From an uncultured bacterium (lineage in GTDB: Bacteria > Patescibacteriota > Minisyncoccia > Phycocordibacterales > Phycocordibacteraceae): a stretch of DNA of 64,000 bases. Position 1 is the stretch's first letter; every line of letters starts with the position of its first letter. The stretch covers positions 553,363-617,362 of the forward strand of contig CAWKPH010000001.1 in assembly GCA_963851445.1 (NCBI GenBank), written 5' to 3'. Of this stretch, positions 38,480-49,529 are shown piece by piece. The position numbers and the translations under genes were made by a program. Below the pieces are notes generated by a model. The model did not search any database and was not told the DNA's origin. It saw only the letters and a program-made list of their open reading frames with translations.

Positions 38480-38512
38480 GATTAAATCTCCAGCTAAGGA
38501 TGGCAAATTCTT

Positions 38513-38546: not shown

Positions 38547-38556
38547 TTTAATTTGG

Positions 38557-38631: not shown

Positions 38632-39132
38632 TTATTTCAATAGATCGATATGTTCAACTTTTATGTCGTAGAAGATTTTAAGTAACCCTCTGAAACACAA
38701 AATCATCAACTCCAACCAATCCGAACGCATTATGTAGAAATGCCAGCGTATTGTTAATCTCAACGTCTTATCATCGGTATCACGAGTGACTATACCGAGG
38801 AGATTGCGTTCGAGAGGAGGAAAATGAGTCGTAATACACACTTCCTTTTGTGTACTTGAGTAGGTGCTTTCATTCCGTGCTTCGCGTAAAGCAGCCATAG
38901 CTCGCAGTACCGCCGGATTTTCCTGATCCATGCACTGGAGCACTGTTAAACCCTGTTCTACGTTTCTCCGACATTTCTGCTGGATTCCTTCGAGTATGGC
39001 GTCATGCAAACGAGGCTTGAAGAGTGCCCTAAACGGAATGGCAAAATAGCACCAAATATAAAGAACGATGCCTCCTAACACTGACGTAACAAGAAGCAAT
39101 AGTGGCAACCCGTATTCCTGAATCGGATGCAT
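38632..39132 (-). CDS. Hypothetical protein with N-terminal TM helix (cassette gene)
   Basis: 166-aa ORF. The minus-strand promoter GCGGAGC TGACAA ... TATATT sits right after repeat A2. Confidence 0.5.
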   Translation of the reverse strand: MHPIQEYGLPLLLLVTSVLGGIVLYIWCYFAIPFRALFKPRLHDAILEGIQQKCRRNVEQGLTVLQCMDQENPAVLRAMAALREARNESTYSSTQKEVCITTHFPPLERNLLGIVTRDTDDKTLRLTIRWHFYIMRSDWLELMILCFRGLLKIFYDIKVEHIDLLK

Positions 39133-39188
39133 TCTGCACCTCTAAGGTTCAAATTCAAACTAAATATAACACAGTATTCAGAATTGTC

Positions 39189-39232
39189 AGCTCCGCCTCG
39201 TGTATGAGGTTAGAACCTGTTTGGTATAAAAT
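39189..39232 (+). repeat. Cassette-array repeat A2 (GCTCCGCCTCGTGTATGAGGTTAGAACCTGTTTGGTATAAAAT)
   Basis: Variant with a CCTC..GAGG mini-hairpin. It ends 6 nt before the ATG of the plus-strand gene. Confidence 0.8.
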
Positions 39233-39238
39233 ACACCA

Positions 39239-39697
39239 ATGACTCCTCCAAAGGTTACCCCTCTCAAACTCGAAACCTACCTGGCTGTCATTAAGAACAG
39301 TGTTGGTACCCGCATGTTCCGCACCTACTACGCCCTCGTCGACGGGAAGCGGAAAGACATCATGCGTCAGGGTGAACTCTCCTGTGCTTTCTTTGTTTCT
39401 TTCATTCTTTCTGGATTCTCTTTAATTGAAGGCATGCACGGAACCGTCGAAGGCACGGTGAAAGATCTCAAAGCCTCTGGTTGGAGACATACAAAAACTA
39501 TTCGAATTGGATGTGTGATTGTATGGGAACCTATAAAAGGAGATAGAGGGGAAGTACATAGGCATATCGGCTTCTATGTGGGAAATGGGAAAGCCATCAG
39601 CAACGACTACAAGAAGGGAATGCCACGTCTCCATCCCTACAAGACTCGGAAGATTACAGGACTCTATTGGAACTCTAAACTAAATAGCTCCGCATGA
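39239..39697 (+). CDS. NlpC/P60-like (papain-fold) hydrolase domain protein (cassette gene, inverted orientation)
   Basis: Candidate Cys in ELSCAFFV and the HIGFYVGNGKAISN His motif resemble C40 peptidases. The last codons SSA and the TGA stop are supplied by repeat A3 (AGCTCCGCATGA). Confidence 0.45.
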   Translation: MTPPKVTPLKLETYLAVIKNSVGTRMFRTYYALVDGKRKDIMRQGELSCAFFVSFILSGFSLIEGMHGTVEGTVKDLKASGWRHTKTIRIGCVIVWEPIKGDRGEVHRHIGFYVGNGKAISNDYKKGMPRLHPYKTRKITGLYWNSKLNSSA

Positions 39698-39714
39698 TAG
39701 AGGACGTTAGAACC
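39687..39714 (+). repeat. Cassette-array repeat A3 (truncated: GCTCCGCATGATAGAGGACGTTAGAACC)
   Basis: The left half of the family A box only. Confidence 0.7.
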
Positions 39715-39757
39715 TACGTCTCATGATTTTCTCACGAGAATAAGGTATACTCTGCAT

Positions 39758-39931
39758 ATGTTTATGTTTTCCAAGAAATCACAGAAAAAGAACCTCCAGG
39801 AAGTTACCAAGAAGCAGCTCAAGAAAACCATGCCTGTGATTGAATCACTTCGCGACTACGATGCCGGAAAAAAGGACATTTCAACCCGTACCGCCCAACA
39901 GCGTCTGCCAAACATACGAGTTGCTCCGTAG
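39758..39931 (+). CDS. Small ORF (57 aa) upstream of and overlapping doc; candidate antitoxin, not Phd/YefM-like
   Basis: ATG-initiated and lysine-rich. It ends with TAG 11 nt inside the probable TTG start of doc. It is absent from the ORF track because it is under 60 aa. Confidence 0.3.
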   Translation: MFMFSKKSQKKNLQEVTKKQLKKTMPVIESLRDYDAGKKDISTRTAQQRLPNIRVAP

Positions 39932-40277
39932 TCAGGGGCTTGTATCGTTTGCACTCACCACTCAAGCGAAAGATAAGGTGGAAGCAATTGTTGCGAACAT
40001 AACCAACACTTACTATGGGCGCGAAATCTACGTAACGGCCGAGGAGAAGTCCGTTGCTTATTTGTATTTCCTCATAAAAGACCATCCTTTTACAGATGGC
40101 AACAAGCGTACTGCCTCACTCGTTTTTAGTATCCTTTGCGAATTAAATGAACTGACTCCACACTTTGGAAACGAAAATCCAACTCTCGATGAGCTTGCTG
40201 TATTCATCGAAAAGATTCAAGAGGAGGATCACCAATCGGTGATTCGACAGATTGCCGTCTTGATATTTGAGACATAG
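39840..40277 (+). CDS. doc: Doc (death-on-curing)/Fic-family toxin
   Basis: HPFTDGNKRTA matches the Doc-type HxFx(D/N)GNKR motif. Alternative starts are ATG 39861 or TTG 39921. Confidence 0.7.
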   Translation: MNHFATTMPEKRTFQPVPPNSVCQTYELLRSQGLVSFALTTQAKDKVEAIVANITNTYYGREIYVTAEEKSVAYLYFLIKDHPFTDGNKRTASLVFSILCELNELTPHFGNENPTLDELAVFIEKIQEEDHQSVIRQIAVLIFET

Positions 40278-40289
40278 GTTATTCGTTTT

Positions 40290-40372
40290 GCACTATAGAG
40301 GACGTTAGAACTTGTGTATATAAAAAGAAAACCACCTTTCTTAAGGGCAGTTTGTCTGGCTAGGTGATGGAA
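40290..40372 (+). repeat. Cassette-array repeat A4 (GCACTATAGAGGACGTTAGAACTTGTGTATATAAAAAGAAAACC + hairpin)
   Basis: Family A copy lacking the GCTCCGC head. The hairpin CCACC..GGTGATGG precedes the stop of 40379..40891. Confidence 0.7.
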
Positions 40373-40378
40373 ACAAAC

Positions 40379-40891
40379 TCACAGGATAAATACCTCATAC
40401 TCGCAACCATCAACCAGTAAGCCTTCACCACGATTGGGGAAAAAACTCCGATGAGGAACATTTTGTGTCCAATCGACTCTTCCACCCTGCATTTCGATGA
40501 GACGCCAAGCAAGCAGTACGGGAACCTCGTCATGACCAACGACGACAACGTTTTCCTCCATCTGCGCGGTTTCCAGAAGAGTGTCTAGGGCTCGTGTCGC
40601 GTACCCCTGTCCAGATTCTTCCTCCTTAGAGCCTACATAGGGAATAGAAACTCCCACGTGCTTGAGATTGCCGAAGGCGAACAGTATTGGGTGCAGTGTC
40701 GGTCGCTGACCAGAAAGAAGAAGGCGAGCTGTAGTCACACAGGCTTCATCTTCAGAGGTTAGAGCAAAAGTTGCTATGAAGTCTCGTTCGAGCAGCCATG
40801 TACGGGCTCGCTTGATGTCGTTAATCCCATCTACACTTAGGTCACGTCCCTGGCCAAGCTCGCCATGGCGCTGAAAGAAAAAGCGAGCCAT
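40379..40891 (-). CDS. Histidine phosphatase superfamily (SixA/PGAM-like) protein (cassette gene)
   Basis: N-terminal RHGE motif (QRHGELGQG) and a second His in VVVVGHDEV. Confidence 0.55.
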   Translation of the reverse strand: MARFFFQRHGELGQGRDLSVDGINDIKRARTWLLERDFIATFALTSEDEACVTTARLLLSGQRPTLHPILFAFGNLKHVGVSIPYVGSKEEESGQGYATRALDTLLETAQMEENVVVVGHDEVPVLLAWRLIEMQGGRVDWTQNVPHRSFFPNRGEGLLVDGCEYEVFIL

Positions 40892-40984
40892 ATGTCAATC
40901 CTCAATGAAGTTTCTTGGTACGTTATAGCACAATTTGTAGATTTTCAGCTCCCAAACATTACCTTAATATACCTTCCTCATTGG

Positions 40985-41042
40985 AAGGGGAGTGAGTGTA
41001 AAAAAGAAAACAGTCCACCGAAGCAGACTGCTTCGGTGGACT
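40985..41042 (+). repeat. Cassette-array repeat B2 (GGGGAGTGAGTGTAAAAAAGAAAAC + perfect 14-bp hairpin)
   Basis: Short variant. The hairpin GTCCACCGAAGCAG/CTGCTTCGGTGGAC plus T-run on the minus strand is a strong terminator for 41064..41336. Confidence 0.7.
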
Positions 41043-41063
41043 GGATTGACCTCTCAGGCGAGG

Positions 41064-41336
41064 TTAAGGGGTTATGCGGGCGAGGCATCCCAGATCAGCT
41101 TCGACCCGGGCATACTCACCAGGGGAGATCTCGAACTCGACGTCGAGGCAGTCTTCCACGAACTTCGCAATGCCATGCACAAGGCCGATGGTTCCTCCGC
41201 GAATCGCGGTGGTTGCTGGTCTGCCATCGGTCAGAAGTGGCGGTGGCGTACGACGGCCGCAAAAGGTTTGGGTGGCCTGCACGAGGTCGGCATAACAGTA
41301 GCCGCCGATTAGCTTCTTTTCCCGTTTCTGATTCAT
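41064..41336 (-). CDS. Hypothetical 90-aa protein, GC-rich (~60% GC) (cassette gene)
   Basis: The promoter GCGGAGCACAG TTGACA N16 TGATATAGAT and the 5'UTR are nearly identical to those of the 44663..45085 cassette. Confidence 0.45.
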   Translation of the reverse strand: MNQKREKKLIGGYCYADLVQATQTFCGRRTPPPLLTDGRPATTAIRGGTIGLVHGIAKFVEDCLDVEFEISPGEYARVEADLGCLARITP

Positions 41337-41431
41337 CGAATGCTCTCCGCGCTAGAATGAAAGGGTACAAACGGATTTAGATCCGAAGGTTCTCTTTATC
41401 TATATCATATAAAGTATATTCTGTCAACTGT

Positions 41432-41515
41432 GCTCCGCACAGTGCACCAGGTTAGAACCTGTTTGGTATAAAAAGAAAAGGACAGCTTCACACAAATGTG
41501 CGAAACCGTCCTGGT
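41432..41515 (+). repeat. Cassette-array repeat A5 (GCTCCGCACAGTGCACCAGGTTAGAACCTGTTTGGTATAAAAAGAAAAGG)
   Basis: Family A copy with an alternative middle segment. Confidence 0.75.
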
Positions 41516-41527
41516 GTCTCCCAATGC

Positions 41528-41941
41528 TTACTTACGGTTGGACGCCTTGGATGCCGCAGCCGAGGCCAGAGGAAGTGGTGCGGGGATTTCTCCATTGCCG
41601 TAGATTAGCCCGTCGCCTTGGAGGATGTTCGCGATGTCGCGGGTTCCGGAGAGTTTGACGACTGCGTATGAGCCATTCACGGGAACGTCGGTGACGATGC
41701 CGTCGTACTGCTTGCTGTTGATCTGGAGTTTCACCTCTTTCGAGCAGAAGTCCGTGCCGATGCAGTGACAGTAGTCTACGCCTTCACGGCAGGAGTTGCT
41801 GAACTGCCTCGACTGCGCGTACGGGTCTACCTCGCCGCCCGGGAACGGAAAGAGGTTGACCTTGAACGACACCTGGACCGTGCAGTCCTTGCTGGGGTCA
41901 CAGTCGACGGCGTCGATAAACACAGCATGTTTATAGTCCAC
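41528..41941 (-). CDS. Lipoprotein-like protein (cassette gene); the N-terminal signal peptide is apparently separated by a 1-nt frameshift (41942..42050)
   Basis: In the track frame, upstream of the called start, the sequence reads SPLALGACSDNSSS (lipobox LALGAC). MKMILVTCAAISA is encoded in another frame 30 codons upstream. Confidence 0.45.
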   Translation of the reverse strand: MDYKHAVFIDAVDCDPSKDCTVQVSFKVNLFPFPGGEVDPYAQSRQFSNSCREGVDYCHCIGTDFCSKEVKLQINSKQYDGIVTDVPVNGSYAVVKLSGTRDIANILQGDGLIYGNGEIPAPLPLASAAASKASNRK

Positions 41942-42172
41942 TTCGGCATGACCTAGGCTAGTCGAGGCCTCTGCCTTGCTCGACGAATTGTCGCTGCAAG
42001 CGCCAAGTGCGAGCGGAGATTGCCGCGCAAGTAACTAGGATCATTTTCATCTCAGTCTCTTTCCGTGGGGGGTTTCAGATCGATAGGAACAAATTCACTT
42101 CGGAGTCTAGTATGACATGTTAAGATTTCATGTCAAGTTCACGTTATGTTTCAATACCTTGGAATCATCCTG

Positions 42173-42247
42173 GCTCCGCATGATAGAGAACCTTAGAACA
42201 TAGCTGGTATAAAAAGCCACCCAGTCCGCTTTCGCGAAAGGGTGGCA
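42173..42247 (+). repeat. Cassette-array repeat A6 (GCTCCGCATGATAGAGAACCTTAGAACATAGCTGGTATAAAAAG + hairpin)
   Basis: Family A copy. Hairpin GCCACCC..CTTTCGCGAAAG..GGTGGC. Confidence 0.75.
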
Positions 42248-42272
42248 GTTGATCAGTTTTGAGATGCTAAAC

Positions 42273-43322
42273 CTACTTATGGCCAAGCGCTCTCCAATTG
42301 TTCTTGGTCTTGGTGGCATAGATACGTCCCGTTGGTCGTGTAGACCCGAGATACGGGAGCCGTGCCTTGTCCCAAAGCCATTTCCTCCCCGCATCCCGCG
42401 CGAACGCCGGTTTGTTATGGGCCGTGGCAATGTATTCCACAAGATCCACATCGCTTGTACGCCAGACCCGCTCGAGAGTCTTCAGTTCGCGTTCGTTGAG
42501 ACTCGCAATCAGATCGGCCAGGTTAGAAACCGCAAAAAGATATGCAGCCTTAGCGTGGTCGTCTGAACGAAGCCGCATGACACTCCCCGGTATCCTAAGA
42601 TTTGAAGGAAGAGAATGGTTGGCTTTTGAGGCGCCGTTCTGGTGTCCGTGGGCGTCGTAGATGGCGAATGGAGTGAACTGGAACGGTCCAAAGCTAGTGA
42701 TCCCGTCATGTATCGCCGGGATACTTTCCACGAAACGACGACCCCCGTGCCGAAGCAGGAAGTCAAAGTAATCGCGATTGAAGGCACCGTTGTAGCGACC
42801 GGGCAAGAGCTCAGTCATGGCGTATGCCACAAGTGAACGTCCGCCAATATGACTGGAGATCTGCTTGAGCAGCTTGAGCTTGCGCTCAGTTAGACGGTAG
42901 TGCTGGCCGAGTTGTTGCCAATCGAGGTGCGTCTGTAGAAGATGCGCATCCTCGCTAGCATCTGTCTCATACTGGCGAATCGGCATCCTTCCCGGATCTT
43001 TCGTCCGGTATTCAGAAATTAACTGCCGAGCCGTTGCTATAACCGTGCGGCTGTCGCCGTGATTGTTTTCTTTTGCCGTCCACAGCGCGACAAGCCGCTT
43101 GTCCCAATCGACACAAAGTCGAGAGGGGATCACATCATTGCGGCTGCTCAGTCCGATGTAATCGGCGTATAAGTCTGAACCGCGATGTCCGGCAAGGCGA
43201 CCGGTACTGTAGCAACCAGCATGTGAGCTGGTCGTGCGATACGTGGTCACAGCCATTGTCCCGAGAGGGAAGATGGCCATGCCCAGAGCCGCAAGTGCGG
43301 CATATGGTTTCAATGATCTCAT
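42273..43322 (-). CDS. Secreted hypothetical protein, 349 aa (cassette gene)
   Basis: Signal peptide MRSLKPYAALAALGMAIFPLGTMA. The promoter TTGACA N17 ATTATA abuts repeat A7. Confidence 0.5.
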   Translation of the reverse strand: MRSLKPYAALAALGMAIFPLGTMAVTTYRTTSSHAGCYSTGRLAGHRGSDLYADYIGLSSRNDVIPSRLCVDWDKRLVALWTAKENNHGDSRTVIATARQLISEYRTKDPGRMPIRQYETDASEDAHLLQTHLDWQQLGQHYRLTERKLKLLKQISSHIGGRSLVAYAMTELLPGRYNGAFNRDYFDFLLRHGGRRFVESIPAIHDGITSFGPFQFTPFAIYDAHGHQNGASKANHSLPSNLRIPGSVMRLRSDDHAKAAYLFAVSNLADLIASLNERELKTLERVWRTSDVDLVEYIATAHNKPAFARDAGRKWLWDKARLPYLGSTRPTGRIYATKTKNNWRALGHK

Positions 43323-43429
43323 AATTCACCCTCTCCCAAGGGACAGATTGTATTAGGTGGGACAGGCAAAGCCTGCATGAATTAGCCATGTATATAATAC
43401 ATATGATATACATTTTGTCAATTTTAGAG

Positions 43430-43492
43430 GCTCCGCCTCGTGTATGAGGTTAGAACCTATGTATAAAAGAAAACCCGCTGAAGCAGGTTTAG
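43430..43492 (+). repeat. Cassette-array repeat A7 (GCTCCGCCTCGTGTATGAGGTTAGAACCTATGTATAAAAGAAAACC + hairpin)
   Basis: Family A copy with the CCTC..GAGG mini-hairpin. Confidence 0.8.
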
Positions 43493-43514
43493 AATAGTTG
43501 ATGAGTTTCACGCC

Positions 43515-43910
43515 TCAATTCATTGAATGAATTCTGGCATCGTCGTCTGGCACAACTTCTTCGATGCACACGATTGGTCCCTCCTCAGTCATGATTGGCT
43601 GAACTGAGATACCAATCACATCTGGATCGAATATCAAGTTTTCAGAACCGGAGCGAAGCAGAAACTCAACCATGCGAGCTTCTCCGTTAGTCTCATCAAG
43701 GTCGGCATGAAAGACGGTCCCTCGGATCGCACCGAACATGCCATTACCCTTGTTGGTCAAGAGACCATCGCAGCACGGATGAGTGAAATACAGCTTACTG
43801 TCTTTGCCTCCCGATTGAAGTGCCTTGACTGAAGCGCTATGCAGAACCATCCGTTCCATAGCGCTAGTGTTCCTACCTCTCCAATCAAGGAAGATAAGCC
43901 CATTTAGCAT
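43515..43910 (-). CDS. Hypothetical protein, 131 aa (cassette gene)
   Basis: The promoter TTTGACA N17 TATAAA follows the degenerate repeat A8. Confidence 0.45.
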   Translation of the reverse strand: MLNGLIFLDWRGRNTSAMERMVLHSASVKALQSGGKDSKLYFTHPCCDGLLTNKGNGMFGAIRGTVFHADLDETNGEARMVEFLLRSGSENLIFDPDVIGISVQPIMTEEGPIVCIEEVVPDDDARIHSMN

Positions 43911-43990
43911 TTCGAATCCTCTCTACGAACGTATGGTTTACCCAAAGAACAGAGGCTTTATATCTTTATGGCATAGAGTTGTCAAACTCT

Positions 43991-44060
43991 GCTCTGCCTC
44001 TGCTATGAGGTTAGTGGGTGGTATGAAAAGAAAAAGCCCCCATACCGAAGCAGGGAGGTG
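43991..44060 (+). repeat. Cassette-array repeat A8, degenerate (GCTCTGCCTCTGCTATGAGGTTAGTGGGTGGTATGAAAAGAAAAAGCC)
   Basis: It retains CCTCTGCTATGAGGTTAG and TATGAAAAGAAAA. Confidence 0.6.
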
Positions 44061-44088
44061 ATGGTTATCTCAACCTTATCTGTGAAGC

Positions 44089-44481
44089 TTAGGCTTCAGC
44101 TGGAGCTCGAGTGAGATGGAAATCCAGAATAGGGCCTTCGTATCCGCGGAAGAACTCCTCGAGATCGAAAGGCGGCGGCGGACCGGCGTTGGACTCGTGG
44201 TTGACATAGTAGCGGCCAAGCTTGAAGAGCAGGTCAGCAGTGGTAACGTGCGGGAACATTCGCTGGAAGATATTGGCAAAGTTGAATACGCCAATCATCC
44301 AGACATCCATGCTGAGTTTTCCTTCGCGGCTATGCCGCGTAAAGTGCTCCCACACATGCTCGCGGAAATGTTCAATGAGCGTTTCGGGCGTATGATGTTC
44401 AGCAATGCGCTGACACCATTCTTCGTAACCGGCACTAATCTCTTCATTAGTCATTTGGCACCTCCTGGCTTTGTGTGGCAT
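44089..44481 (-). CDS. Hypothetical protein, ~120-130 aa (cassette gene)
   Basis: Histidine-rich and acidic. Confidence 0.4.
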   Translation of the reverse strand: MPHKARRCQMTNEEISAGYEEWCQRIAEHHTPETLIEHFREHVWEHFTRHSREGKLSMDVWMIGVFNFANIFQRMFPHVTTADLLFKLGRYYVNHESNAGPPPPFDLEEFFRGYEGPILDFHLTRAPAEA

Positions 44482-44590
44482 GTACCTTGGTCATTCCAAG
44501 GTATTGAACCATGCGGAATCTGAGCAGAATCTAGCACAGTTGCACAAGGGTTCCAACATCACCCGAAAGAATATTCGGTTGGCAGTTGTA

Positions 44591-44660
44591 GAAGTGAGTA
44601 TAAAAAGAAAACCACCCCTCCGTCGAAACGAAGAAGTGATCTTCGAATCGCCGAGGTGGC
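44591..44660 (+). repeat. Cassette-array repeat B3 (GAAGTGAGTATAAAAAGAAAACCACCCCTCCG + hairpin)
   Basis: Near-identical to B1 over ~40 nt. The spurious plus-strand ORFs 38135..38485 and 44471..44959 both translate this segment as SIKRKPPLRRN. Confidence 0.65.
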
Positions 44661-44662
44661 GG

Positions 44663-45085
44663 TTAGCGGAAGGGATCGCCAGAAACAATCTCGCCCCGCG
44701 TCTCCCCGCTGATCTTGCCGTCGATGTAGTCCATCTCGGATTGCTCCGCGCGTTCGTTAGGGTCCTCCATAAGATAAATATGGATCTCCCGCCGCACCTG
44801 GTTTTTCAGCCAGAAGAAACTCGGAACGAAGCTCACGCCGGTGATGACCAATGTGAACGCATTGAGTACCCTCCAGCTGAAGTGACCGATATGACTCTCG
44901 AGCCACGGCGGTCCAGGCATGAGGGTGGAAGCGATGACCACCCCGAGCAATATCGCTGAGAGAGCGGTCACCCTCTCCCTGTCGCTGAACTTTAGATAGA
45001 TGAGGGCAAAGCCGTAGCCACCCAAAACACCAGCGACGAGGTACGAGTAGCCCCAGGGCCACAAGTCTTGCCAGTGGGCAAACAT
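44663..45085 (-). CDS. Membrane protein, 140 aa (cassette gene)
   Basis: 3-4 TM helices. The promoter GCGGAGCACAG TTGACA N16 TGATATAGAT abuts repeat A9. Confidence 0.5.
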   Translation of the reverse strand: MFAHWQDLWPWGYSYLVAGVLGGYGFALIYLKFSDRERVTALSAILLGVVIASTLMPGPPWLESHIGHFSWRVLNAFTLVITGVSFVPSFFWLKNQVRREIHIYLMEDPNERAEQSEMDYIDGKISGETRGEIVSGDPFR

Positions 45086-45189
45086 GGTTCATGCGTCCTT
45101 TTGGCGCACTATATAGTTGGTGGAAAGAACGGGCAATGAGCCCAAAGGTTCTCTTTATCTATATCATTTAAATTTATTTTGTCAACTGT

Positions 45190-45265
45190 GCTCCGCATGA
45201 TAGAGGACGTTAGAACGTGTTTGGTATGAAAAATCGCCGACGCATCGCTTATGAGCGATAGCAAG
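45190..45265 (+). repeat. Cassette-array repeat A9 (GCTCCGCATGATAGAGGACGTTAGAACGTGTTTGGTATGAAAAA + hairpin GCATCGCT..AGCGATAGC)
   Basis: Full-length family A copy. Confidence 0.8.
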
Positions 45266-45333
45266 ATGTACTTGACAGAGTAAGAATAATATATTATTGT
45301 ATTAACGAATTTTGTTCCTGATGGAGAAAACAG

Positions 45334-45561
45334 ATGTATGCTTTCCGCATTGTTGGAGATTTCGCCGGTCTTATCGGAGCCCTGTGCGGCATGGCCGGGG
45401 TGATACTTTTGCTTTATGGTTGGCACTGTCACAATCGTGCATACAAATCAGCAACTACTGTGGCTGAGTGGCGCCGCGTTGCCCTGGTTTGGTCATGGTC
45501 TGCGTGGCTTCTTGTCCTCTCAGTGGGACTCACAGGGGTGCCAAACCTGCTCATCAAGTAG
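45334..45561 (+). CDS. Small membrane protein, 75 aa (cassette gene, inverted orientation)
   Basis: Two TM helices. It has its own TTGACA-containing promoter region at ~45272. Confidence 0.4.
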   Translation: MYAFRIVGDFAGLIGALCGMAGVILLLYGWHCHNRAYKSATTVAEWRRVALVWSWSAWLLVLSVGLTGVPNLLIK

Positions 45562-45638
45562 AGAACTGGCGCATGCGGAGAAAATCCGTGTGCGCCAATT
45601 ATTTTTATTTCTTTACGACGTTCACGATTTTCACCCTA

Positions 45639-45716
45639 GCCTCGCATGATAGAGGACGTTAGAACATGTTTGGTATGAAAAAGCCCGCATTGCTGCGAGC
45701 TCAGAATGAGAAGGGT
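45639..45716 (+). repeat. Cassette-array repeat A10 (GCCTCGCATGATAGAGGACGTTAGAACATGTTTGGTATGAAAAAG)
   Basis: Family A copy. Confidence 0.8.
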
Positions 45717-46265
45717 TTATGCGTGAGCCAAGACCTTGTCTTCAGAGAACCGATACTCCCCATCAAAGGGTGCAGTCGCCTCTGCAAACTGACTCAAGAC
45801 TTCCGAGACGAGTGGCCAGAACTTGCCATAGCCGATAAATGAGAATTCCTGTTCCAGCAGTCCGAACTCTGCCGTCGCCGAAAGTCTCCACTCATGTTGG
45901 CTGTGTGAGTTTTGTGAGTCATAGATCTTCCCGACGCAAACTCTGAGAAGCCGTTTTGGCCGAGAGAAGTTGGACATGCTCAGATCTTCTTCGCACCTCG
46001 GGATGCCAGCAAGCACTTGCAGGTGAGCGCTGTATTCCTGAGAGTATATCCTCTCCAAAAAAACAAGAGAGGGAAGACCATAGTGGCCGATAAGTTCCGT
46101 CAGTTCTGTGAGAGGACGTACACGATACGGTGGTTGCTTGGGAGATATGATACCCGCGCATGGGAAGTTGATCTCTTCCACACCACCATGGTTCTCGCTC
46201 ACTCTGTCGAAGATCAGACGAGGGGCTGCAAGCAGACCTTCGACGTCGATACGCTCTTGGGACAT
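45717..46265 (-). CDS. Hypothetical protein, 182 aa (cassette gene)
   Basis: Read on the minus strand, promoter CTGACA N16 TATACT and SD AGGAGG lie between repeat A11 and the ATG. Confidence 0.5.
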   Translation of the reverse strand: MSQERIDVEGLLAAPRLIFDRVSENHGGVEEINFPCAGIISPKQPPYRVRPLTELTELIGHYGLPSLVFLERIYSQEYSAHLQVLAGIPRCEEDLSMSNFSRPKRLLRVCVGKIYDSQNSHSQHEWRLSATAEFGLLEQEFSFIGYGKFWPLVSEVLSQFAEATAPFDGEYRFSEDKVLAHA

Positions 46266-46325
46266 GATTGCCTCCTGTGTAATTCCCGATTTCAGTATAC
46301 GATCTGCCCTCGATTTGTCAGCCCC

Positions 46326-46418
46326 GTCACGTATGACGTAAGAACTTGTAGGGTATGAAAAGAAAAAGACCGCCTCCCCGAGACACCGGAAAGACAGTCT
46401 CTGCAGAGAAGCGGTCGT
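46326..46418 (+). repeat. Cassette-array repeat A11, divergent (CGTCACGTATGACGTAAGAACTTGTAGGGTATGAAAAGAAAAAG + long hairpin GACCGC...GCGGTC)
   Basis: The mini-hairpin is replaced by CGTCA..TGACG and TTAGAAC becomes TAAGAAC. The terminator hairpin lies just before the stop of 46429..46770. Confidence 0.6.
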
Positions 46419-46428
46419 GAAAGTGGTC

Positions 46429-46770
46429 TCAAGCCACTTCGGTCACAACACGGTCGATGAGGTTTGTCGGTTCCGACAGCTCCATCTCGAAGAGCTTCTT
46501 CAGGGCGGAGATGCCCATGAGTGTGGCGAGAGCAACCATCTGGTCGTGCTCTTCACGTTTGAAGAGCTTGGTCACCGTCCAGAGTTCACGAACTCGACCA
46601 GGCATGCGTTCGAACTTCAGGCCGACCACCGGTTGGTGCCTGTCACCGACCGATACAAGCTCGATCTTGCGACCGAACTGAGCCAACAAGAAAAGGCTGC
46701 GATCCATGATGTTATCCTTTTGTGAAAAGCCAGACGTCTGGCAACAAATTCGGTACGTATATGAAAACAT
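46429..46770 (-). CDS. Hypothetical protein (probable start MDRSLF... at ~46707) (cassette gene)
   Basis: I chose this over the overlapping plus ORF 46417..46725 because it has a terminator, a repeat and an upstream TTGACA. Confidence 0.4.
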   Translation of the reverse strand: MFSYTYRICCQTSGFSQKDNIMDRSLFLLAQFGRKIELVSVGDRHQPVVGLKFERMPGRVRELWTVTKLFKREEHDQMVALATLMGISALKKLFEMELSEPTNLIDRVVTEVA

Positions 46771-46790
46771 GCACAGGAGCGTTTGTCAAG

Positions 46791-46838
46791 GCTCCGCGCA
46801 GTGCATGAGGTTAGAACGTGTATGTAAAAGAAAAAACC
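46791..46838 (+). repeat. Cassette-array repeat A12 (GCTCCGCGCAGTGCATGAGGTTAGAACGTGTATGTAAAAGAAAAAACC)
   Basis: Family A copy. Confidence 0.75.
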
Positions 46839-46852
46839 TACTCGCGTCTACT

Positions 46853-47320
46853 CTACACGCTTTCGGTTTTCTTGACGGCAAATCTCCAGAAGGGAGCCCA
46901 GCCGGCATCGATGATGCGCACTCGTATTCCATGTCCAGCTCCTGCATGAATACAGGGTACGAATCGGTATCCTCGAGGATCTTCCCATGTATCCTTCGGA
47001 GCTGTGATCGGAGGAGCATGTTCAAGTTGCGGATTGCTTGCCCGAAGCTCAAGTAGCTCTGCGGCATTTACTGCTTCATAACCCTCATTCAGAAGCAACA
47101 TAGCCGTGTCTTCCTTATGGCTGATCCACCAATCGAAGGAAACGAGATCGATTGAAACCGACTGAAGCCCATAACACAGTTGTGGGAAGTGCTCGTCAGT
47201 GAGGCGCGCATCGATGTAGTCTGGCGGATTCTCTTTTAGTGTAATCCGTCTCAGAATGCGTCTGATAGTCTGAGACCCCAGATAGGGAACCTGCACTTCA
47301 AAGTGCTCTACAATTTTCAT
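46853..47320 (-). CDS. Hypothetical protein, 155 aa (cassette gene)
   Basis: Extended -10 TGATATAAC and SD AAGAGG lie upstream on the minus strand. Confidence 0.45.
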   Translation of the reverse strand: MKIVEHFEVQVPYLGSQTIRRILRRITLKENPPDYIDARLTDEHFPQLCYGLQSVSIDLVSFDWWISHKEDTAMLLLNEGYEAVNAAELLELRASNPQLEHAPPITAPKDTWEDPRGYRFVPCIHAGAGHGIRVRIIDAGWAPFWRFAVKKTESV

Positions 47321-47377
47321 TCGACTACCTCTTGTTGATCTAAGTGAGTTATATCACTTTTTTATTTTTTTCAGATC

Positions 47378-47442
47378 CACCTCTGTCATGAGGTTAGAAC
47401 CTATGTATAAAAGAAAACCGCCCAATTGCTTGGACGGCTTGG
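47378..47442 (+). repeat. Cassette-array repeat A13 (CCTCTGTCATGAGGTTAGAACCTATGTATAAAAGAAAACC + hairpin CCGCCCAA..TTGGACGG)
   Basis: Family A copy lacking the GCTCCGC head. Confidence 0.7.
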
Positions 47443-47463
47443 TTTCTTCGTTAAGCTGATCGA

Positions 47464-48018
47464 TTAGAAAATCTCATGAATGAAGCCGAGCTCTTTGGCT
47501 TCTTCGGCACTCATATCCCGATCTTCCGCAAGCAGCTTACGCATCCTGCGAATCGGCATGCCGGTTTTGTCAGAATACATGCGAACGATTGTTTCTTCTT
47601 GCTTAACTGCTTCATCGATGAGTTCCTGCATTCGAGCTTTGCTTTTGACTGAGCTCGTTGGAAGGTTCATCCATGAGTGCCGCCCTTCGTGAACAAGTAT
47701 TGTTGAACCTTCTTCACAAAGGCGACGATCACACATGAGAAGTATCGTTACCGCTGCAGATCTCGCAGCGCCATAGACACGAACGGTCTTGTGGCCCATG
47801 TAGTCTTGCAGAAGCCGAGCGATGAAAAGGCCAGCTCTTTCGTACCCGCCATGACTTGATAGACGTATTTGTATAGCGGGCGAGTCGCGCGCTGTGAGGA
47901 CGGTCATGGCCGCAAGCACATACTCGGCCATTTGTTGGTCGACCTCCCCTTGAAGGAAGAGAGTATTCTTATCCAGCAGCTCTCTTTCGAGACCTGTCAT
48001 GCAATTGTCTAGCGACAT
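47464..48018 (-). CDS. ClpP-like (S14 family) serine protease (cassette gene)
   Basis: GAARSAAVTILLMCD (Ser region) and VHEGRH (His region) line up with the ClpP catalytic motifs. Promoter GCGGAGC ATAAA TTGACG N16 TATTAT. Confidence 0.55.
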   Translation of the reverse strand: MSLDNCMTGLERELLDKNTLFLQGEVDQQMAEYVLAAMTVLTARDSPAIQIRLSSHGGYERAGLFIARLLQDYMGHKTVRVYGAARSAAVTILLMCDRRLCEEGSTILVHEGRHSWMNLPTSSVKSKARMQELIDEAVKQEETIVRMYSDKTGMPIRRMRKLLAEDRDMSAEEAKELGFIHEIF

Positions 48019-48090
48019 TTAACTAACATCTCCGATGCAGACGTAATTTCCTGAATGATAATAACACGAACCAATGATTCGTCAATTTAT

Positions 48091-48150
48091 GCTCCGCCTC
48101 ATAGAGGATGTTAGAACGCGGGTGGTATGAAAAACCGCCCTTTCTTGAGG
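48091..48150 (+). repeat. Cassette-array repeat A14 (GCTCCGCCTCATAGAGGATGTTAGAACGCGGGTGGTATGAAAAACC + hairpin CCGCCCT..AGGGACGG)
   Basis: Family A copy. Confidence 0.8.
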
Positions 48151-48173
48151 GACGGTCTTGAGTGTTATGCGGA

Positions 48174-48530
48174 TCAGAGTCCGTTTCGAGCGTAAAAGTC
48201 CTGAGAAGCTTTGGCGTATGCGGTCGGATCGCCATTGAGCTTTACGACACGGCTGATCATTCCCAACGACCCGCTCCCTTTGAGGCTTCTCAGAACATCA
48301 AGACTACCGTTTGCAAGGTCGATGCGTTCTGGAAAGCCATTCTTGTAGTAGATGTCGCCGCTGCAAGATACGGGATTCGACTCACAGCCCTCCACCCATG
48401 CAGAGACTTCTGCGGGGGGTGGGGAATTGGAGGACGATACGCTGTGATGCTTGCCAAGAACGGCGTGAAAATAGAGGATGGCAAACACGACGATTAGTCC
48501 AAGGAAAAGGTACCGACCACGCATATCCAA
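48174..48530 (-). CDS. Secreted hypothetical protein (likely start ATG at 48524) (cassette gene)
   Basis: Signal peptide MRGRYLFLGLIVVFAILYFHA. Promoter TTGACA N17 ATAATA and SD AGGAGG. Confidence 0.5.
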   Translation of the reverse strand: MDMRGRYLFLGLIVVFAILYFHAVLGKHHSVSSSNSPPPAEVSAWVEGCESNPVSCSGDIYYKNGFPERIDLANGSLDVLRSLKGSGSLGMISRVVKLNGDPTAYAKASQDFYARNGL

Positions 48531-48608
48531 AACCCCTCCTTAGGGCAGTAGCATGAACATTCTGACTGCATCTATTATGCAAAGGTCACAATGCATGTCA
48601 AGTATAAG

Positions 48609-48692
48609 TGCTCTGCTATGAGGTTAGAACGCGGGTATGAAAAAAGCCGCCCGGAGCACAACGAAGTAAACTCCGGGGGCTTCAGGCGGTCA
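48609..48692 (+). repeat. Cassette-array repeat A15 (GTGCTCTGCTATGAGGTTAGAACGCGGGTATGAAAAAAG + hairpin GCCGCCCGGAG..CTCCGGGGGC)
   Basis: Family A copy. The hairpin plus T-run on the minus strand terminates 48690..49529. Confidence 0.75.
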
Positions 48693-49529
48693 GTTGTAAA
48701 TGCGATCCAGATAGAGCACGGTGCCGTAACATTTTTCGCTCCAGAGGATGTGAACGTAGTCTCTCCAGTTCGCAAATGGCAGAATATAGCCGCCGAACTT
48801 CCTGGGCAGGTTATTCGGTAGATATCGCTGCATCTCGTGCCTTGCGCGGTCAGTAAGTGGAAAAAGAATCTTCTGGTCGCCGTACGAGAGAACGGCCATC
48901 GAATCTCCGGTTCTCTGCTGCTGCCGAATCTTCTCCGGAATGACCAGGAAGTCGAACCAGTGCTTTTGGAAGCGCGAGTTCAGGGGTGGTTCTTGCCCAA
49001 ACTCCTCATCGACAGGGCTTGAGTAGCTCGCAATTGCCGGTCGTCCAGGGATGGGCGTCGCGGTCTTGGTGTCGAAGTTGAAGTGCGCAAGGATCCGCAT
49101 GACGTGAGCGAGTGCACCAGCCGCATCCTCCTTGCGGAAGTTTCGAACCTCACTCGTCGGCCAGTTTTGTCCAGGGCACGGAATCTGGCATTGCATGATG
49201 CTGAAGTCGCCTTCGAAAGCGTAACGGACATAGGCGATGCAGTCGTCATTCTTGACGAAACCAACTCCCTCGAGGTGAGCCATGTCCTCGTCTGCTACTG
49301 CACCGGCGAGCAGATTGATCTGCCAGGAATCCTGTGGCGTCGCACCAACATTGCAGACACCGATATGTCCGGGATGGACGTCGGTGATGCGCATCTTGTC
49401 GCTCAGTCCGCAGAACTCGATGCATTCTTGAAGCAGCTTGGCGAACTGCTCGGCGCGTGGCAGAGAGGCTGTCTTGTCGATGTCTCTTTGACGCTCATAG
49501 GCTTCTCGTTCGAGCGATGTGTCGCTCAT
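48690..49529 (-). CDS. Hypothetical protein, 279 aa (cassette gene)
   Basis: Promoter GCGGAGCACAAT TTGACA N15-17 TATATAAA upstream on the minus strand. Confidence 0.5.
   Translation of the reverse strand: MSDTSLEREAYERQRDIDKTASLPRAEQFAKLLQECIEFCGLSDKMRITDVHPGHIGVCNVGATPQDSWQINLLAGAVADEDMAHLEGVGFVKNDDCIAYVRYAFEGDFSIMQCQIPCPGQNWPTSEVRNFRKEDAAGALAHVMRILAHFNFDTKTATPIPGRPAIASYSSPVDEEFGQEPPLNSRFQKHWFDFLVIPEKIRQQQRTGDSMAVLSYGDQKILFPLTDRARHEMQRYLPNNLPRKFGGYILPFANWRDYVHILWSEKCYGTVLYLDRIYN

What the first reader, a model, noticed from the sequence alone, without database searches (positions are those of the whole stretch)
39189..48650. Co-varying mini-hairpin inside the repeat (CCTC-loop-GAGG versus CGTCA-loop-TGACG versus ATGATAGAGGAC), and two repeat sub-families plus decayed copies
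The middle of the box differs between copies but keeps a short inverted repeat.

- CCTC gtgtat GAGG at 39189 and 43430.
- CCTC tgctat GAGG at 49631 and 43991.
- CCTC ata GAGG at 48091.
- CGTCA cgta TGACG at 46326.

About half the copies instead carry ATGATAGAGGAC with only a TCC/GGA pairing. Preservation of pairing with a changing loop suggests that a DNA or RNA structure is recognised, which recalls folded recombination sites.

The short B variant at 38130, 40985, 44591 and 54236 shares only GAGTATAAAAAGAAAAC plus the hairpin. The head-less and degenerate copies suggest a history of partial recombination and decay.
Basis: seen in the sequence. Interest (0 to 1): 0.55.

Follow-up and report, generated by a model that had tools for sequence, protein, structure and literature searches.

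The report
Junction boxes of a gene-cassette array
The "mini-hairpin" is not a conserved structure: it lies inside a fixed-geometry DNA box (GCTCCGC-N13-TTAGAAC) that marks each junction between unrelated single-gene units in an 18-kb hypervariable island of a tiny-genome (Paceibacterota) bacterium, an arrangement like an integron or T4 "PeSL" cassette array but with a different junction site.

Summary
The claimed co-variation is not supported.

- **Structure test.** On 41 distinct copies from seven genomes, RNAalifold finds no consensus structure. The CCTC/GAGG helix is paired in 62.8% of cells against 58.1% in shuffles. Core folding energies equal those of centre-permuted controls (mean z about +0.1).
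- **What is conserved.** The GAGG half belongs to a conserved sequence block. The box is TGCTCCGC-N6-A.GA.GTT(A/C)G(AAC), usually followed by nTGTTTGGTAT(A/G)AAA.
- **Distribution.** Nineteen A-type and four long B-type boxes lie between 38.09 and 54.26 kb, all on the + strand. None occurs elsewhere in the window or in about 100 kb of relatives' ordinary DNA.
- **Cassettes.** The boxes separate about 24 unrelated, mostly orphan, single-gene units, 20 on the − strand and 5 on the + strand. Most − strand units have their own sigma-70 promoter and terminator.
- **Other genomes.** Arrays with the same boxes and uniform polarity occur in other Paceibacterota, with wholly different cassettes except one Doc toxin–antitoxin module.
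- **What is missing.** No attC-type pairing, no recombinase nearby and no Rfam hit were found.

Best reading: a double-stranded, protein-recognised junction module of an integron-like or PeSL-like cassette array. The mechanism is inferred, not shown.

The parts
38090..38155 (+). B-type (long) junction box: GAGCTCCCAACATCACGTTACTATACC...GGGAAGTGAGTATAAAAAGAAAAC. It is the left-most box, upstream of the promoter of the − strand FMN-reductase gene 37508-38041.
   Evidence: (D8, D10); promoter at 38077-38049
38556..38598 (+). A-type box, centre ATGATAGAGGACG.
   Evidence: nhmmer E 2.4e-11
39189..39231 (+). A-type box, centre CTCGTGTATGAGG. Its right half TGGTATAAAAT serves as the -10 for the leaderless + strand gene 39239-39697. 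CTGACA-16-TATATT on the − strand serves gene 38632-39132.
39686..39724 (+). A-type box lying between two + strand units. It overlaps the stop codon of 39239-39697 and lies 6 nt before the Doc toxin-antitoxin module.
39719..40284 (+). Doc/Fic toxin-antitoxin cassette: antitoxin 39758-39931 and Doc up to 40277. It is the only cassette shared with other arrays.
   Evidence: Pfam Fic 2.3e-10. 79% nt identity to L058, 76% to L063 and 76% to L071.
40285..40325 (+). A-type box with a decayed head (GTTTTGC), directly after the Doc stop codon.
40946..41010 (+). B-type box.
41431..41473 (+). A-type box, centre ACAGTGCACCAGG.
42172..42214 (+). A-type box.
43429..43471 (+). A-type box, centre CTCGTGTATGAGG, with the short right half CTATGTATAAAAG.
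43990..44029 (+). A-type box with a decayed TTAGAAC (TTAGTGG).
44547..44611 (+). B-type box with a decayed head. It matches the L063 long form ATATTCGGTTGGCAGTTGTAGAAGTGAGTATAAAAAG.
45189..45231 (+). A-type box.
45639..45680 (+). A-type box lying between a + strand terminator and a − strand terminator, so neither side needs a promoter there.
46322..46360 (+). A-type box, the divergent copy GCCCCGT-CACGTATGACG-TAAGAAC. It is the only copy with a hairpin clearly better than chance.
46791..46832 (+). A-type box.
47374..47414 (+). A-type box with a variant head (GATCCAC).
48090..48132 (+). A-type box, centre CTCATAGAGGATG.
48609..48645 (+). Head-less A-type box, with a 6-nt deletion relative to the 49631 copy.
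49630..49672 (+). A-type box.
50465..50507 (+). A-type box.
51796..51829 (+). Degenerate A-type box with the head lost.
53249..53279 (+). A-type box, GCTCCGC-ATGTTGGTCGATG-TCAGAAC, without the right half. It is closest to the L002 copies.
54190..54258 (+). B-type box, the right-most clear copy.
56392..56416 (+). Possible terminal degenerate box (GCTACCC-N11-TCAGAAC), 2 nt upstream of the -35 of the TrmB-family regulator gene 56455-57186.
   Evidence: Weak: not found by nhmmer.
38156..54189 (-). About 24 inter-box units. Each is usually one ORF with its own TTGACA-N16/17-TATAAT promoter abutting the box head and an intrinsic terminator abutting the box tail. Twenty units are on the − strand and five on the + strand. 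The products are mutually unrelated and mostly have no Pfam family.

Best explanation
The boxes are the junction modules of a chromosomal gene-cassette array in a Candidatus Paceibacterota (CPR) bacterium. Each junction has three parts, read in the direction of the majority − strand genes.

- **Tail.** The terminator hairpin and T-tract of the upstream unit. Its complement, TGGTAT(A/G)AAA, also works as an outward extended -10 for + strand, often leaderless, units.
- **Core.** A 27-bp sequence with fixed geometry: GTTCTAA-N13-GCGGAGC, which is GCTCCGC-N13-TTAGAAC on the + strand.
- **Head side.** The sigma-70 promoter of the next unit, 0-11 bp away in most copies.

The core is read as double-stranded sequence by a protein. 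It is not a hairpin. I infer that recombination between boxes is what adds, removes and reshuffles the single-gene units. That recombination could be catalysed by an unlinked site-specific enzyme, or driven by the shared 27-45 bp of homology as in T4 PeSLs. The attached promoter and terminator signals make each unit expressible wherever it lands.

**Shown:** the anatomy, the polarity, the restriction to the island, the conservation across genomes, the turnover of cassettes, and the absence of structure.

**Inferred:** that the boxes are the recombination points, and which enzyme acts on them.
For: **Distribution and polarity.**
- 19 A-type and 4 B-type boxes are all on the + strand between 38.09 and 54.26 kb.
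- None is found in the rest of the window or in about 100 kb of related genomes' syntenic DNA.
- Gene strand is mixed while box strand is uniform. The window has 20 − and 5 + units. L058 has about 6 and 6, and L063 about 5 + and 10 −.

**Conservation pattern.**
- GCTCCGC, A21, A24 and G26-T27-T28 are at least 90% conserved and G30 is invariant.
- All 41 distinct copies from seven genomes align without a single gap, while the centre is free to vary.

**Position at unit borders.**
- Boxes sit at every unit border whether or not a promoter is needed there, for example at 39686, 40285 and 45639.
- Promoters and terminators flank the boxes: 25 promoter-like sites against 16.5 expected, and 34 terminator-like sites against 15.2 expected.

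**Cassette content.**
- The units are unrelated to each other and mostly orphan.
- One 279-aa product has a single distant homologue among 5.8 billion proteins.

**Other genomes.**
- Two further arrays carry the same boxes: L058 with at least 14 boxes and L063 with at least 16.
- They share no cassette with the window except the Doc toxin-antitoxin module.
- The window and L058 arrays both lie downstream of a peptidase M15_4 gene.

**The shared Doc module.**
- Its homology starts 6 nt after TTAGAAC of the left box and ends at the stop codon, 1-8 nt before the next head.
- Everything to the right of the next TTAGAAC/TTCGGTT is unrelated in the three genomes.

**Assortment of box parts.**
- Centre type and right-flank type assort independently (r = 0.01 overall, 200/500 permutations as high).
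- Neighbouring boxes are no more alike than distant ones.
- Core identity is 0.73 within genomes and 0.665 between genomes.

**Other signs.**
- L058 carries two tandem box cores 2 nt apart at 10840 and 10869, an empty unit.
- Contigs from independent assemblies break inside boxes.
- The PeSL precedent is documented in PMC2839356 and PMC4122927.
Against: - No recombination event was observed. The only second assembly of this strain is identical, and population contigs of L058 are colinear.
- No integrase, resolvase or transposase is encoded in the 64-kb window or among the Pfam-annotated genes around the L058 and L063 arrays.
- The one shared cassette, the Doc toxin-antitoxin module, has the same homology limits in L071, which has no boxes. 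It is also box-free in L067 and L069. Its borders are therefore those of the module itself. In L063 and L071 it lies downstream of a similar ECF sigma / anti-sigma gene pair, so it may be vertically inherited and not mobilised through boxes.
- Single boxes lie between ordinary genes in L003 and L005, which fits a regulatory site equally well.
- Many box pairs share fewer than 20 identical bases in a row, which is poor substrate for homologous recombination.
- The spacing between TTAGAAC and the GTATAAA part varies from 4 to 9 nt. The right half is therefore not part of a rigid core site.
Confidence: 0.5

Rival explanations
1. Dedicated site-specific recombination. The 27-bp core is the att-type site of an unknown recombinase encoded elsewhere in the genome. 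That enzyme excises and inserts cassettes with a crossover in or just after GTT(A/C)G(AAC). This would be an integron analogue with a short double-strand site. It is a sharper form of the best explanation.
For: - Block conservation with a strictly fixed 13-nt spacer across seven genomes, while the centre diverges.
- G30 is invariant and T27-T28 are at least 90% conserved, at the point where left-cassette and right-cassette sequence meet.
- Uniform polarity independent of gene strand.
- Centre and right flank assort independently.
- A tandem empty box pair in L058.
- Many boxes are too dissimilar for RecA-type exchange.
Against: - No recombinase lies in the window or next to three arrays.
- The core has no dyad symmetry of the kind tyrosine or serine recombinase core sites show. 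The palindrome test around GTT..AAC is no better than shuffles.
- No excision product or polymorphism was seen.
- The B-type boxes replace TTAGAAC by TTCGGTT.
Confidence: 0.25
2. Operator only. The core is the binding site of a transcription regulator that controls the divergent promoters on either side of it, silencing or co-inducing the island. The array arose by ordinary gene gain, and the boxes play no part in recombination.
For: - The core lies between a − strand -35 (0-11 bp from the head in most copies) and a + strand extended -10 (4-9 bp after TTAGAAC), where a bound protein would occlude both.
- Bipartite conserved blocks with a fixed spacer are typical of regulator sites.
- Single copies lie between ordinary genes in L003 and L005.
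- XRE (52910-53164) and TrmB-family (56455-57186) regulators are encoded in or beside the array. A box-like sequence abuts the TrmB promoter.
Against: - Box strand never flips with gene strand in three arrays.
- Boxes occur where no promoter is needed, at 40285 and 45639.
- The head-to-(-35) distance takes the values 0, 1, 4, 5, 8, 11 and about 35 bp with no helical phasing.
- This reading does not explain why boxes occur only in hypervariable islands, or why contigs break at them.
Confidence: 0.17
3. A small hairpin in single-stranded DNA or RNA, kept by compensatory change, is the recognised feature, as in attC sites, REP/RAYT elements or IS200/IS605 ends.
For: - Six window copies can form CCTC-N3/6-GAGG and one forms CGTCA-N4-TGACG.
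- Column pair 14-25 shows A-T in 17 copies, C-G in 6 and G-T in 3.
- The overall paired fraction is slightly above shuffles, at 10/500.
Against: - RNAalifold finds no consensus pair on 25 or 41 copies. On the B-type boxes it finds only a G-U-rich helix of -1.8 kcal/mol.
- Core folding energy equals that of permuted controls on both strands.
- 55-nt folds have z from +0.65 to -3.2, and different hairpins form in different copies.
- Registers slid by +2 or -1 columns score as well or better.
- GAGG is conserved as part of A.GA.G irrespective of a partner.
- There is no R''/R' partner and no Rfam hit.
Confidence: 0.04
4. Passive relic. The boxes are leftovers of one ancestral promoter/terminator region, spread by duplication, with no function of their own.
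For: Decayed and head-less copies exist. Sub-families look related by descent.
Against: - The cassettes are not paralogous, so there was no segmental duplication.
- Neighbouring boxes are no more alike than distant ones.
- The blocks and the spacing are conserved between genomes whose other intergenic DNA, and all cassettes but one, are unrelated.
Confidence: 0.04

Closest known systems
PeSLs (promoter-early stem-loop cassettes) of T4-type phages (Arbiol et al. 2010, PMC2839356; Comeau et al. 2014, PMC4122927)
   Same: - A repeated composite motif that combines a sigma-70 consensus promoter with an adjacent terminator stem-loop.
- The motif flanks single orphan ORFs clustered in a hyperplastic region.
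- The flanked ORFs differ completely between close relatives.
- The motif is proposed to be both a regulatory signal and the point of exchange.
   Different: - This element is in a bacterial (CPR) chromosome, not a phage, and no copy was found in IMG/VR.
- The conserved part here is neither the promoter nor the stem-loop, both of which differ from copy to copy. It is an extra 27-bp bipartite core between them.
- Polarity is kept even when genes are inverted.
- No circles or exchange events have been demonstrated.
Integron cassette arrays, attC sites and CALINs (Cury et al. 2016, PMC4889954)
   Same: - Directly oriented sites separate mostly single, unrelated, orphan ORFs, including a toxin-antitoxin cassette.
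- The sequence left of the site travels with the left unit and the sequence to its right with the next unit.
- GTTAGAA resembles the R' consensus GTTRRRY.
- The array has no adjacent integrase, as in CALINs.
   Different: - There is no R''/R' or L''/L' complementarity, no palindromic fold and no extrahelical-base architecture.
- The conserved unit is 27-45 bp, against at least 57 bp for attC.
- Conservation is of sequence, not of structure.
- Most units carry their own promoter and terminator.
- No IntI was found.
- The host has a very small genome, a size class in which complete integrons were reported absent (PMC4889954).
pdif (Xer-dependent) modules of Acinetobacter plasmids. This comparison rests on my own knowledge and was not checked in the paper library.
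   Same: Small discrete modules, often single genes or toxin-antitoxin pairs, are bounded by short sites of about 28 bp. No recombinase is encoded in the module or next to it.
   Different: - dif-like sites are 11-6-11 with dyad-symmetric inner arms, and they alternate in orientation around modules.
- The core here has no such symmetry, and every copy points the same way.
REP/BIME elements with RAYT transposases. This comparison rests on my own knowledge.
   Same: Short intergenic repeats that lie next to terminators.
   Different: - REPs are stable imperfect palindromes dispersed genome-wide in both orientations.
- These boxes do not fold better than chance, are confined to one island and have a single polarity.

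Membership tests
Integron attC site / CALIN | Complementary outer core sites R'' (RYYYAAC) and R' (GTTRRRY) within one 57-141 nt site. | tested here: not met
   A search for GTTCTAAC-like partners (up to 2 mismatches) within 160 nt either side of 17 boxes found no consistent partner. GTTAGAA fits 6 of the 7 R' positions, and B-type boxes carry TTCGGTT instead.
Integron attC site / CALIN | An imperfect palindrome that folds as a single strand (R and L boxes, extrahelical bases, variable terminal structure). Conservation is of structure more than of sequence. | tested here: not met
   RNAalifold finds 0 pairs on 25 and on 41 copies. Core energies equal permuted controls. Only 1-8 nt lie between the Doc stop codon and the box head, so the whole site is about 27-45 bp.
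Integron attC site / CALIN | Directly oriented sites separating mostly single, unrelated ORFs. | tested here: met
   All 19 A-type and 4 B-type boxes are on the + strand, and about 24 non-paralogous units lie between them.
Integron attC site / CALIN | Cassettes generally lack promoters and are expressed from Pc. | tested here: not met
   Most units have their own TTGACA-N16/17-TATAAT promoter and an intrinsic terminator.
Integron attC site / CALIN | An IntI-type tyrosine recombinase next to the array or elsewhere in the genome. | tested here: inconclusive
   None is present in the 64-kb window or in the 20-kb loci around two other arrays. The rest of the 688-kb contig could not be read.
T4-type PeSL | A repeated unit containing a sigma-70 consensus promoter. 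| tested here: met
   − strand TTGACA-like -35 elements lie 0-11 bp from the box head in most copies (about 35 bp in one), with a -10 element 16-17 bp further on.
T4-type PeSL | An adjacent stem-loop acting as a terminator. | tested here: met
   − strand terminator-like hairpins with a T-tract abut the box tail at 41043, 41512, 43490, 44644, 46402, 47440, 50532 and 54287, among others. Function was not assayed.
T4-type PeSL | The motif flanks orphan ORFs in a hyperplastic region that differs between close relatives. | tested here: met
   The window, L058 and L063 arrays share only the Doc module.
T4-type PeSL | Recombination between copies produces indels and ORF-plus-chimeric-motif circles. 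| not testable with these tools
   This needs reads or strain series. The only second assembly is identical.
T4-type PeSL | The element resides in a T4-like phage genome. | tested here: not met
   The window carries housekeeping genes of a Paceibacterota chromosome. The full pattern has 0 matches in IMG/VR, and the 44 matches to the 14-base pattern all lack the GGTAT(A/G)AAA right half.
REP/BIME | A stable imperfect palindrome, dispersed genome-wide in both orientations. | tested here: not met
Xer/dif-like site (pdif modules) | Two about 11-bp arms with inverted symmetry around a 6-bp spacer. | tested here: not met
   The palindrome test around GTT..AAC is no better than shuffles. The distance from TTAGAAC to GTATAAA varies from 4 to 9 nt.
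Known structured RNA (Rfam 15) | A match to a covariance model. | tested here: not met
   There are 0 hits at gathering score over the whole window. At E up to 1 over 38000-56500 there is only a chance snoRNA hit.

The most novel reading that the evidence does not exclude
Paceibacterota (CPR) bacteria may carry a previously undescribed gene-capture system that is functionally analogous to integrons. In this reading the arrays of autonomous single-gene cassettes are assembled by an unlinked, still unidentified recombinase. That enzyme would recognise a short asymmetric double-strand site (GCTCCGC-N13-TT(A/C)G...) and not a folded attC.
Probability: 0.25. Interest if true: 0.85.

Novelty: new variant of a known kind. 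Interest (0 to 1): 0.6.

Why it matters
CPR bacteria have genomes under 1 Mb and are thought to carry few mobile elements. Complete integrons were reported absent from very small genomes (PMC4889954).

This island is 16-18 kb, roughly 2.5% of a 688-kb contig. It holds about 24 orphan genes, each an independent transcription unit. The units are separated by a conserved, polar junction motif that recurs in other Paceibacterota with entirely different gene content. That points to a dedicated way of storing and exchanging accessory genes in these episymbionts.

If the boxes are true recombination sites, they define a new type of cassette system and give a simple sequence handle, the box HMM, for three tasks:
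- finding the flexible gene pool of CPR genomes;
- explaining why their assemblies fragment at these loci;
- searching for the partner protein.

If the boxes are only operators, they define a regulon of accessory genes in an uncultured phylum.

Tried and rejected
- **attC-like partner sites.** None found.
- **Consensus folding.** A-type and B-type boxes were folded and three named helices counted. No structure emerged.
- **Scan of all 3-bp helices.** The best helix (columns 18-20 with 27-29, 64% of copies) only slightly exceeds a column-shuffle null (maximum 57%). It is driven by G-T wobbles with the conserved TT, so I judged it not meaningful.
- **Coding explanation.** The variable positions of A.GA.G fall on third codon positions on the − strand. 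This reading was rejected because several copies have in-frame stop codons and there is no start codon (by inspection).
- **tRNA, tmRNA and Rfam.** Nothing found.
- **Alternative sigma or a -35 role for the core.** Spacing to the -10 varies from 4 to 9 nt, and spacing to the − strand -35 ranges from 0 to 11 bp in most copies (about 35 bp in one).
- **LexA, parS, Ter, KOPS, Chi and dif.** I considered resemblances from memory and found no convincing match.
- **Recombinase in the window.** Four Pfam scans found none.
- **Phage or plasmid origin.** The viral scans were empty or gave only chance matches.
- **Homologues of a 279-aa cassette protein.** There is one distant hit, on a 1.5-kb contig without boxes.
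- **Syntenic regions of relatives, found through the ABC permease.** About 100 kb without any box.
- **Doc homologues at 70-80% identity.** L067, L069 and L071 carry the module without boxes. This weakens the use of that module as proof of box-mediated mobility.
- **Linkage of box halves.** My first impression that the left and right halves are linked did not survive a permutation test.

Full report
**Setting**

The window is a chromosomal piece of a Candidatus Paceibacterota (CPR/Patescibacteria) bacterium.
- It encodes primase, the primary sigma factor, a UvrD-type helicase, HisRS, ABC transporters and glycosyltransferases.
- The only genomes that carry the same repeat are Paceibacterota MAGs.
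- Close homologues of its ABC permease are annotated as Paceibacterota or Patescibacteria.
- The source contig is 687,765 bp.

**Checking the observation**

The repeat is real. An HMM built from the copies finds 19 A-type boxes with E from 6e-12 to 3e-4. All are on the + strand between 38,556 and 53,279, and nothing significant lies in the remaining 45 kb. Four long B-type boxes (38090, 40946, 44547, 54190) share the tail GGGAAGTGAGTATAAAAAGAAAAC. The motif GTAT[AG]AAAA occurs 13 times in the window, always on the + strand inside the island.

**The hairpin**

I tested the claimed co-variation in four ways.

1. *Consensus folding.* RNAalifold on 25 copies, and then on 41 distinct copies from seven genomes, returns no base pair. 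On the long B-type boxes it returns only a G-U-rich 5-bp helix of -1.8 kcal/mol.
2. *Pair counting.*
   - On 41 copies it is 62.8% against 58.1% (10/500; covariation 0.146 against 0.096, 17/500).
   - Sliding the 3' partner by +2 or -1 columns gives 0.230 and 0.175, so the signal is not specific to one register.
   - It also lies within what related sequences give without any structure.
   - The TCC/GGA (CTCC/GGAG) alternative and the GTT..AAC palindrome are no better than shuffles.
3. *Folding energy.* For 22 distinct 27-nt cores, DNA folding energy equals that of controls in which only the 13-nt centre is permuted. Mean z is +0.10 on the + strand and +0.18 on the − strand. Only the CGTCA/TGACG copy at 46321 stands out, at z -2.6.
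4. *Longer folds.* 55-nt folds give z from +0.65 to -3.2. The two best use different hairpins centred on the head: CTGTGC-TCC-GCACAG at 41432 and GAGGC-TCC-GCCTC at 43430.

The reason for the apparent pairing is visible in the alignment. The GAGG half belongs to a conserved block, A.GA.GTTAGAAC. This block is kept in copies that have no complementary CCTC. Within the CCTC...GAGG sub-family the stem letters never change, which is conservation and not compensation.

**What the box is**

Across 41 distinct copies, which align without a single gap, the pattern is as follows.
- The head GCTCCGC is at least 90% conserved. It is often extended to TGCTCCGCA.
- A21, A24 and G26-T27-T28 are at least 90% conserved, and G30 is invariant.
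- The rest of the centre is free, but its length of 13 nt is fixed.

After TT(A/C)G(AAC), most A-type boxes continue with nTGTTTGGTAT(A/G)AAA at variable distance, 4-9 nt from TTAGAAC to the TATAAA part.

B-type boxes read GCTCCGC-ACCTGGGAGGATG-TTCGGTT-GGTGATTGTGGGAGGGAAGT(GA)GTATAAAAAG.

Two centre sub-families occur both in the window and in other genomes..(T/A)(G/A)GAGGA.G and CTC-N5-A(T/C)GAGG.

**Context**

Read in the direction of the majority − strand genes, each junction has this order:
- the stop codon of one gene;
- a terminator hairpin;
- TTTT(C)TTTTTATACC;
- N4-7;
- GTTCTAA-N13-GCGGAGC;
- a gap of 0-11 nt in most copies, about 35 nt in one;
- TTGACA-N16/17-TATAAT;
- the ribosome-binding site and ATG of the next gene.

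The scan finds 25 promoter-like sites against 16.5 expected and 34 terminator-like sites against 15.2 expected. The strong ones flank the boxes.

About 24 units lie between the boxes, and nearly all hold one ORF. Twenty units are on the − strand and five on the + strand. The box strand never changes.

The + strand genes start leaderless 6-8 nt after a -10 element placed just right of the core. At 39239 that element is the box's own TGGTATAAAAT.

Boxes also stand where neither neighbour needs a promoter, at 40285 and 45639.

The products are unrelated to each other. Few have a Pfam family: Fic/Doc, a ClpP-like protein, a trypsin-like protein, HATPase+DUF4325, XRE and LPD3. One 279-aa product has a single distant homologue among 5.8 billion proteins.

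No recombinase is encoded anywhere in the window.

**Other genomes**

- The full 19-base pattern hits only Paceibacterota. The hits are a mini-array next to ychF (L002), two boxes in L001, and single boxes between ordinary genes in L003/L004 and L005. It hits nothing in IMG/VR.
- The 14-base pattern gives 44 viral matches, none with the GGTAT(A/G)AAA right half, which I read as chance matches.
- About 100 kb around the ABC-permease orthologue in relatives with 79-86% amino-acid identity contains no box.
- Searching with the Doc toxin led to two further arrays: L058 (at least 14 boxes, about 6.7-19 kb) and L063 (at least 16 boxes, from 9.8 kb to the locus end at 20.4 kb). All their boxes are on one strand, with genes on both strands. 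No recombinase appears among the Pfam-annotated neighbours.
- The window and L058 arrays both lie downstream of a peptidase M15_4 gene in the same orientation.
- By tblastx the three arrays share nothing but the Doc toxin-antitoxin module.

**The shared module**

- The window segment 39719/39720-40269 is 79% identical in nucleotides to L058 and 76% to L063.
- The homology begins 6 nt after TTAGAAC of the left box and runs to the stop codon, which lies 1-8 nt before the next head.
- The head and centre of that right-hand box are similar in all three genomes (GCAC.T.G.GAGGA.GTT). Everything after TTAGAAC/TTCGGTT is unrelated.

This is what a cassette model predicts, with the left part of a box travelling with the left unit. 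There is an important caveat. The same module, with the same limits (window 39721-40284), occurs in L071 with no boxes at all. It is also box-free in L067 and L069. In L063 and L071 it lies downstream of a similar ECF sigma / anti-sigma gene pair. The module may therefore be an old resident around which arrays turned over, and it does not prove box-mediated transfer.

**Further array-level statistics**

- Centre type and right-flank type assort independently: r = 0.107 in the window (63/500), -0.13 in L058, 0.285 in L063 (56/500) and 0.014 overall (200/500).
- Neighbouring boxes are no more alike than distant ones: 0.65 against 0.67 in the window.
- Cores within a genome are about as different from one another (0.73 identity) as from cores in other genomes (0.665). 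The box variants therefore form a shared, old pool and are not local duplicates.

L058 has two box cores in tandem, 2 nt apart, which amounts to an empty unit. Independent assemblies break inside boxes. L006 ends at window 47390, and L059 and L060 end at L058 9190 and 10861.

**Interpretation**

The data fit a double-strand, protein-recognised junction motif of a gene-cassette array. I commit to this as the best explanation, with confidence 0.5.

In this reading the boxes are the points at which single-gene units are gained, lost and reordered. The attached terminator, outward -10 and promoter signals make each unit autonomous. T4-type PeSLs are the closest documented parallel (PMC2839356, PMC4122927).

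Whether the exchange is site-specific through an unlinked enzyme (0.25, counted as a sharper rival) or homology-driven cannot be decided here.
- For a dedicated protein: fixed geometry, the invariant GTT.G junction, strict polarity, and low identity between many boxes.
- Against it: no linked recombinase and no dyad symmetry.

The main non-recombinational rival is an operator between divergent promoters (0.17). The position of the core and the single copies in L003 and L005 support it. The strand invariance, the unphased spacing, and the boxes placed where no promoter is needed count against it.

The folded-site reading (0.04) and the passive-relic reading (0.04) are poorly supported.

**Comparison with known systems**

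This is not an attC or CALIN array. It has no R''/R' or L''/L' pairing and no fold. The site is too short, conservation is of sequence, and most units carry their own promoter (definition from PMC4889954).

It works like a PeSL array but is not a member of that family. It sits in a bacterial chromosome and has an extra conserved core. It is also not REP/BIME, not dif-like, and not a known RNA.

I found no description of such arrays in CPR bacteria in the paper library.

I rate it a new variant of a known kind, namely cassette arrays with conserved junction repeats. Interest is moderate to high because of the host, whose genome is tiny and thought to be poor in mobile elements, and because the motif gives a direct handle on the flexible gene pool of CPR bacteria. 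The specific claim I was asked to check, a co-varying hairpin, is not supported.

Noticed in passing
window 55311-55389 and 55729-55833: A second, unrelated direct repeat: 47 nt at 98% identity plus 35 nt at 83%, about 420 bp apart. It contains the hairpin GGGGAGAAACGAGTTCTCCC and lies beside small − strand ORFs at the right edge of the island. An independent assembly (L006) breaks inside it. There is no Rfam hit.
   Followed up: partly
window 39210-39241, 39745-39760; L002 95-120; L058 10895-10920: + strand cassette genes appear to be leaderless. The ATG lies 6-8 nt after an extended -10 element (TGGTATAAAAT, GGTATACT or TGTTAGAAT) and there is no Shine-Dalgarno sequence.
   Followed up: partly
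window about 23.4 kb and about 30-32 kb: Gene orientation switches from − to + at about 23.4 kb. Cumulative GC skew reaches its minimum near 30-32 kb and then rises. This could be an origin-like strand switch. If so, the mostly − strand cassette genes would be head-on to replication.
   Followed up: no
L058 10840-10895: Two complete box cores lie in tandem, separated by 2 nt: GCTCCGCCTCTGTGATGAGGTTAGAAC-TG-GCTCCGCACCAGTAATGAGGCTAGTAC. This amounts to an empty cassette.
   Followed up: no
L071 9739-9808 and 10516-10585: In a genome without boxes, the Doc toxin-antitoxin module is flanked by a 70-nt direct repeat at 74% identity. The second copy lies in the 5' part of the downstream GDSL-lipase gene. 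This looks like a duplication made when the module was inserted.
   Followed up: no
L001 2186-2401 versus 3871-4323: A truncated duplicate of the N-terminal 38 codons of a GNAT acetyltransferase gene lies 1.5 kb from the intact gene, between two boxes. This may be a scar of a rearrangement.
   Followed up: no
window 45231-45639: One inter-box unit carries only a 75-aa + strand ORF (45334-45561). It has its own TTGACA-17-TATTGT promoter (45272-45300) and a strong + strand terminator (45567-45597).
   Followed up: no
window 36901-37530 (+) and 37508-38041 (-): Two FMN-reductase paralogues are convergent and overlap by 23 bp at their 3' ends, immediately left of the first box. The − strand gene uses the promoter next to the B-type box.
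   Followed up: no
window 51887-53164: An HATPase_c + DUF4325 (STAS-like) protein is paired tail-to-tail with an XRE-family HTH protein inside one inter-box unit. It may be a defence-type or signalling pair.
   Followed up: no
L036 (IMG/VR contig), − strand, about 2251-2555: An unrelated repeat, GGTTCGGACACAGGGCTCCGCAGGAGCCCCTGCTTTAGAACCGTAGGTTTCTGA, is present twice, 278 nt apart. It matched the 14-base pattern by chance.
   Followed up: no
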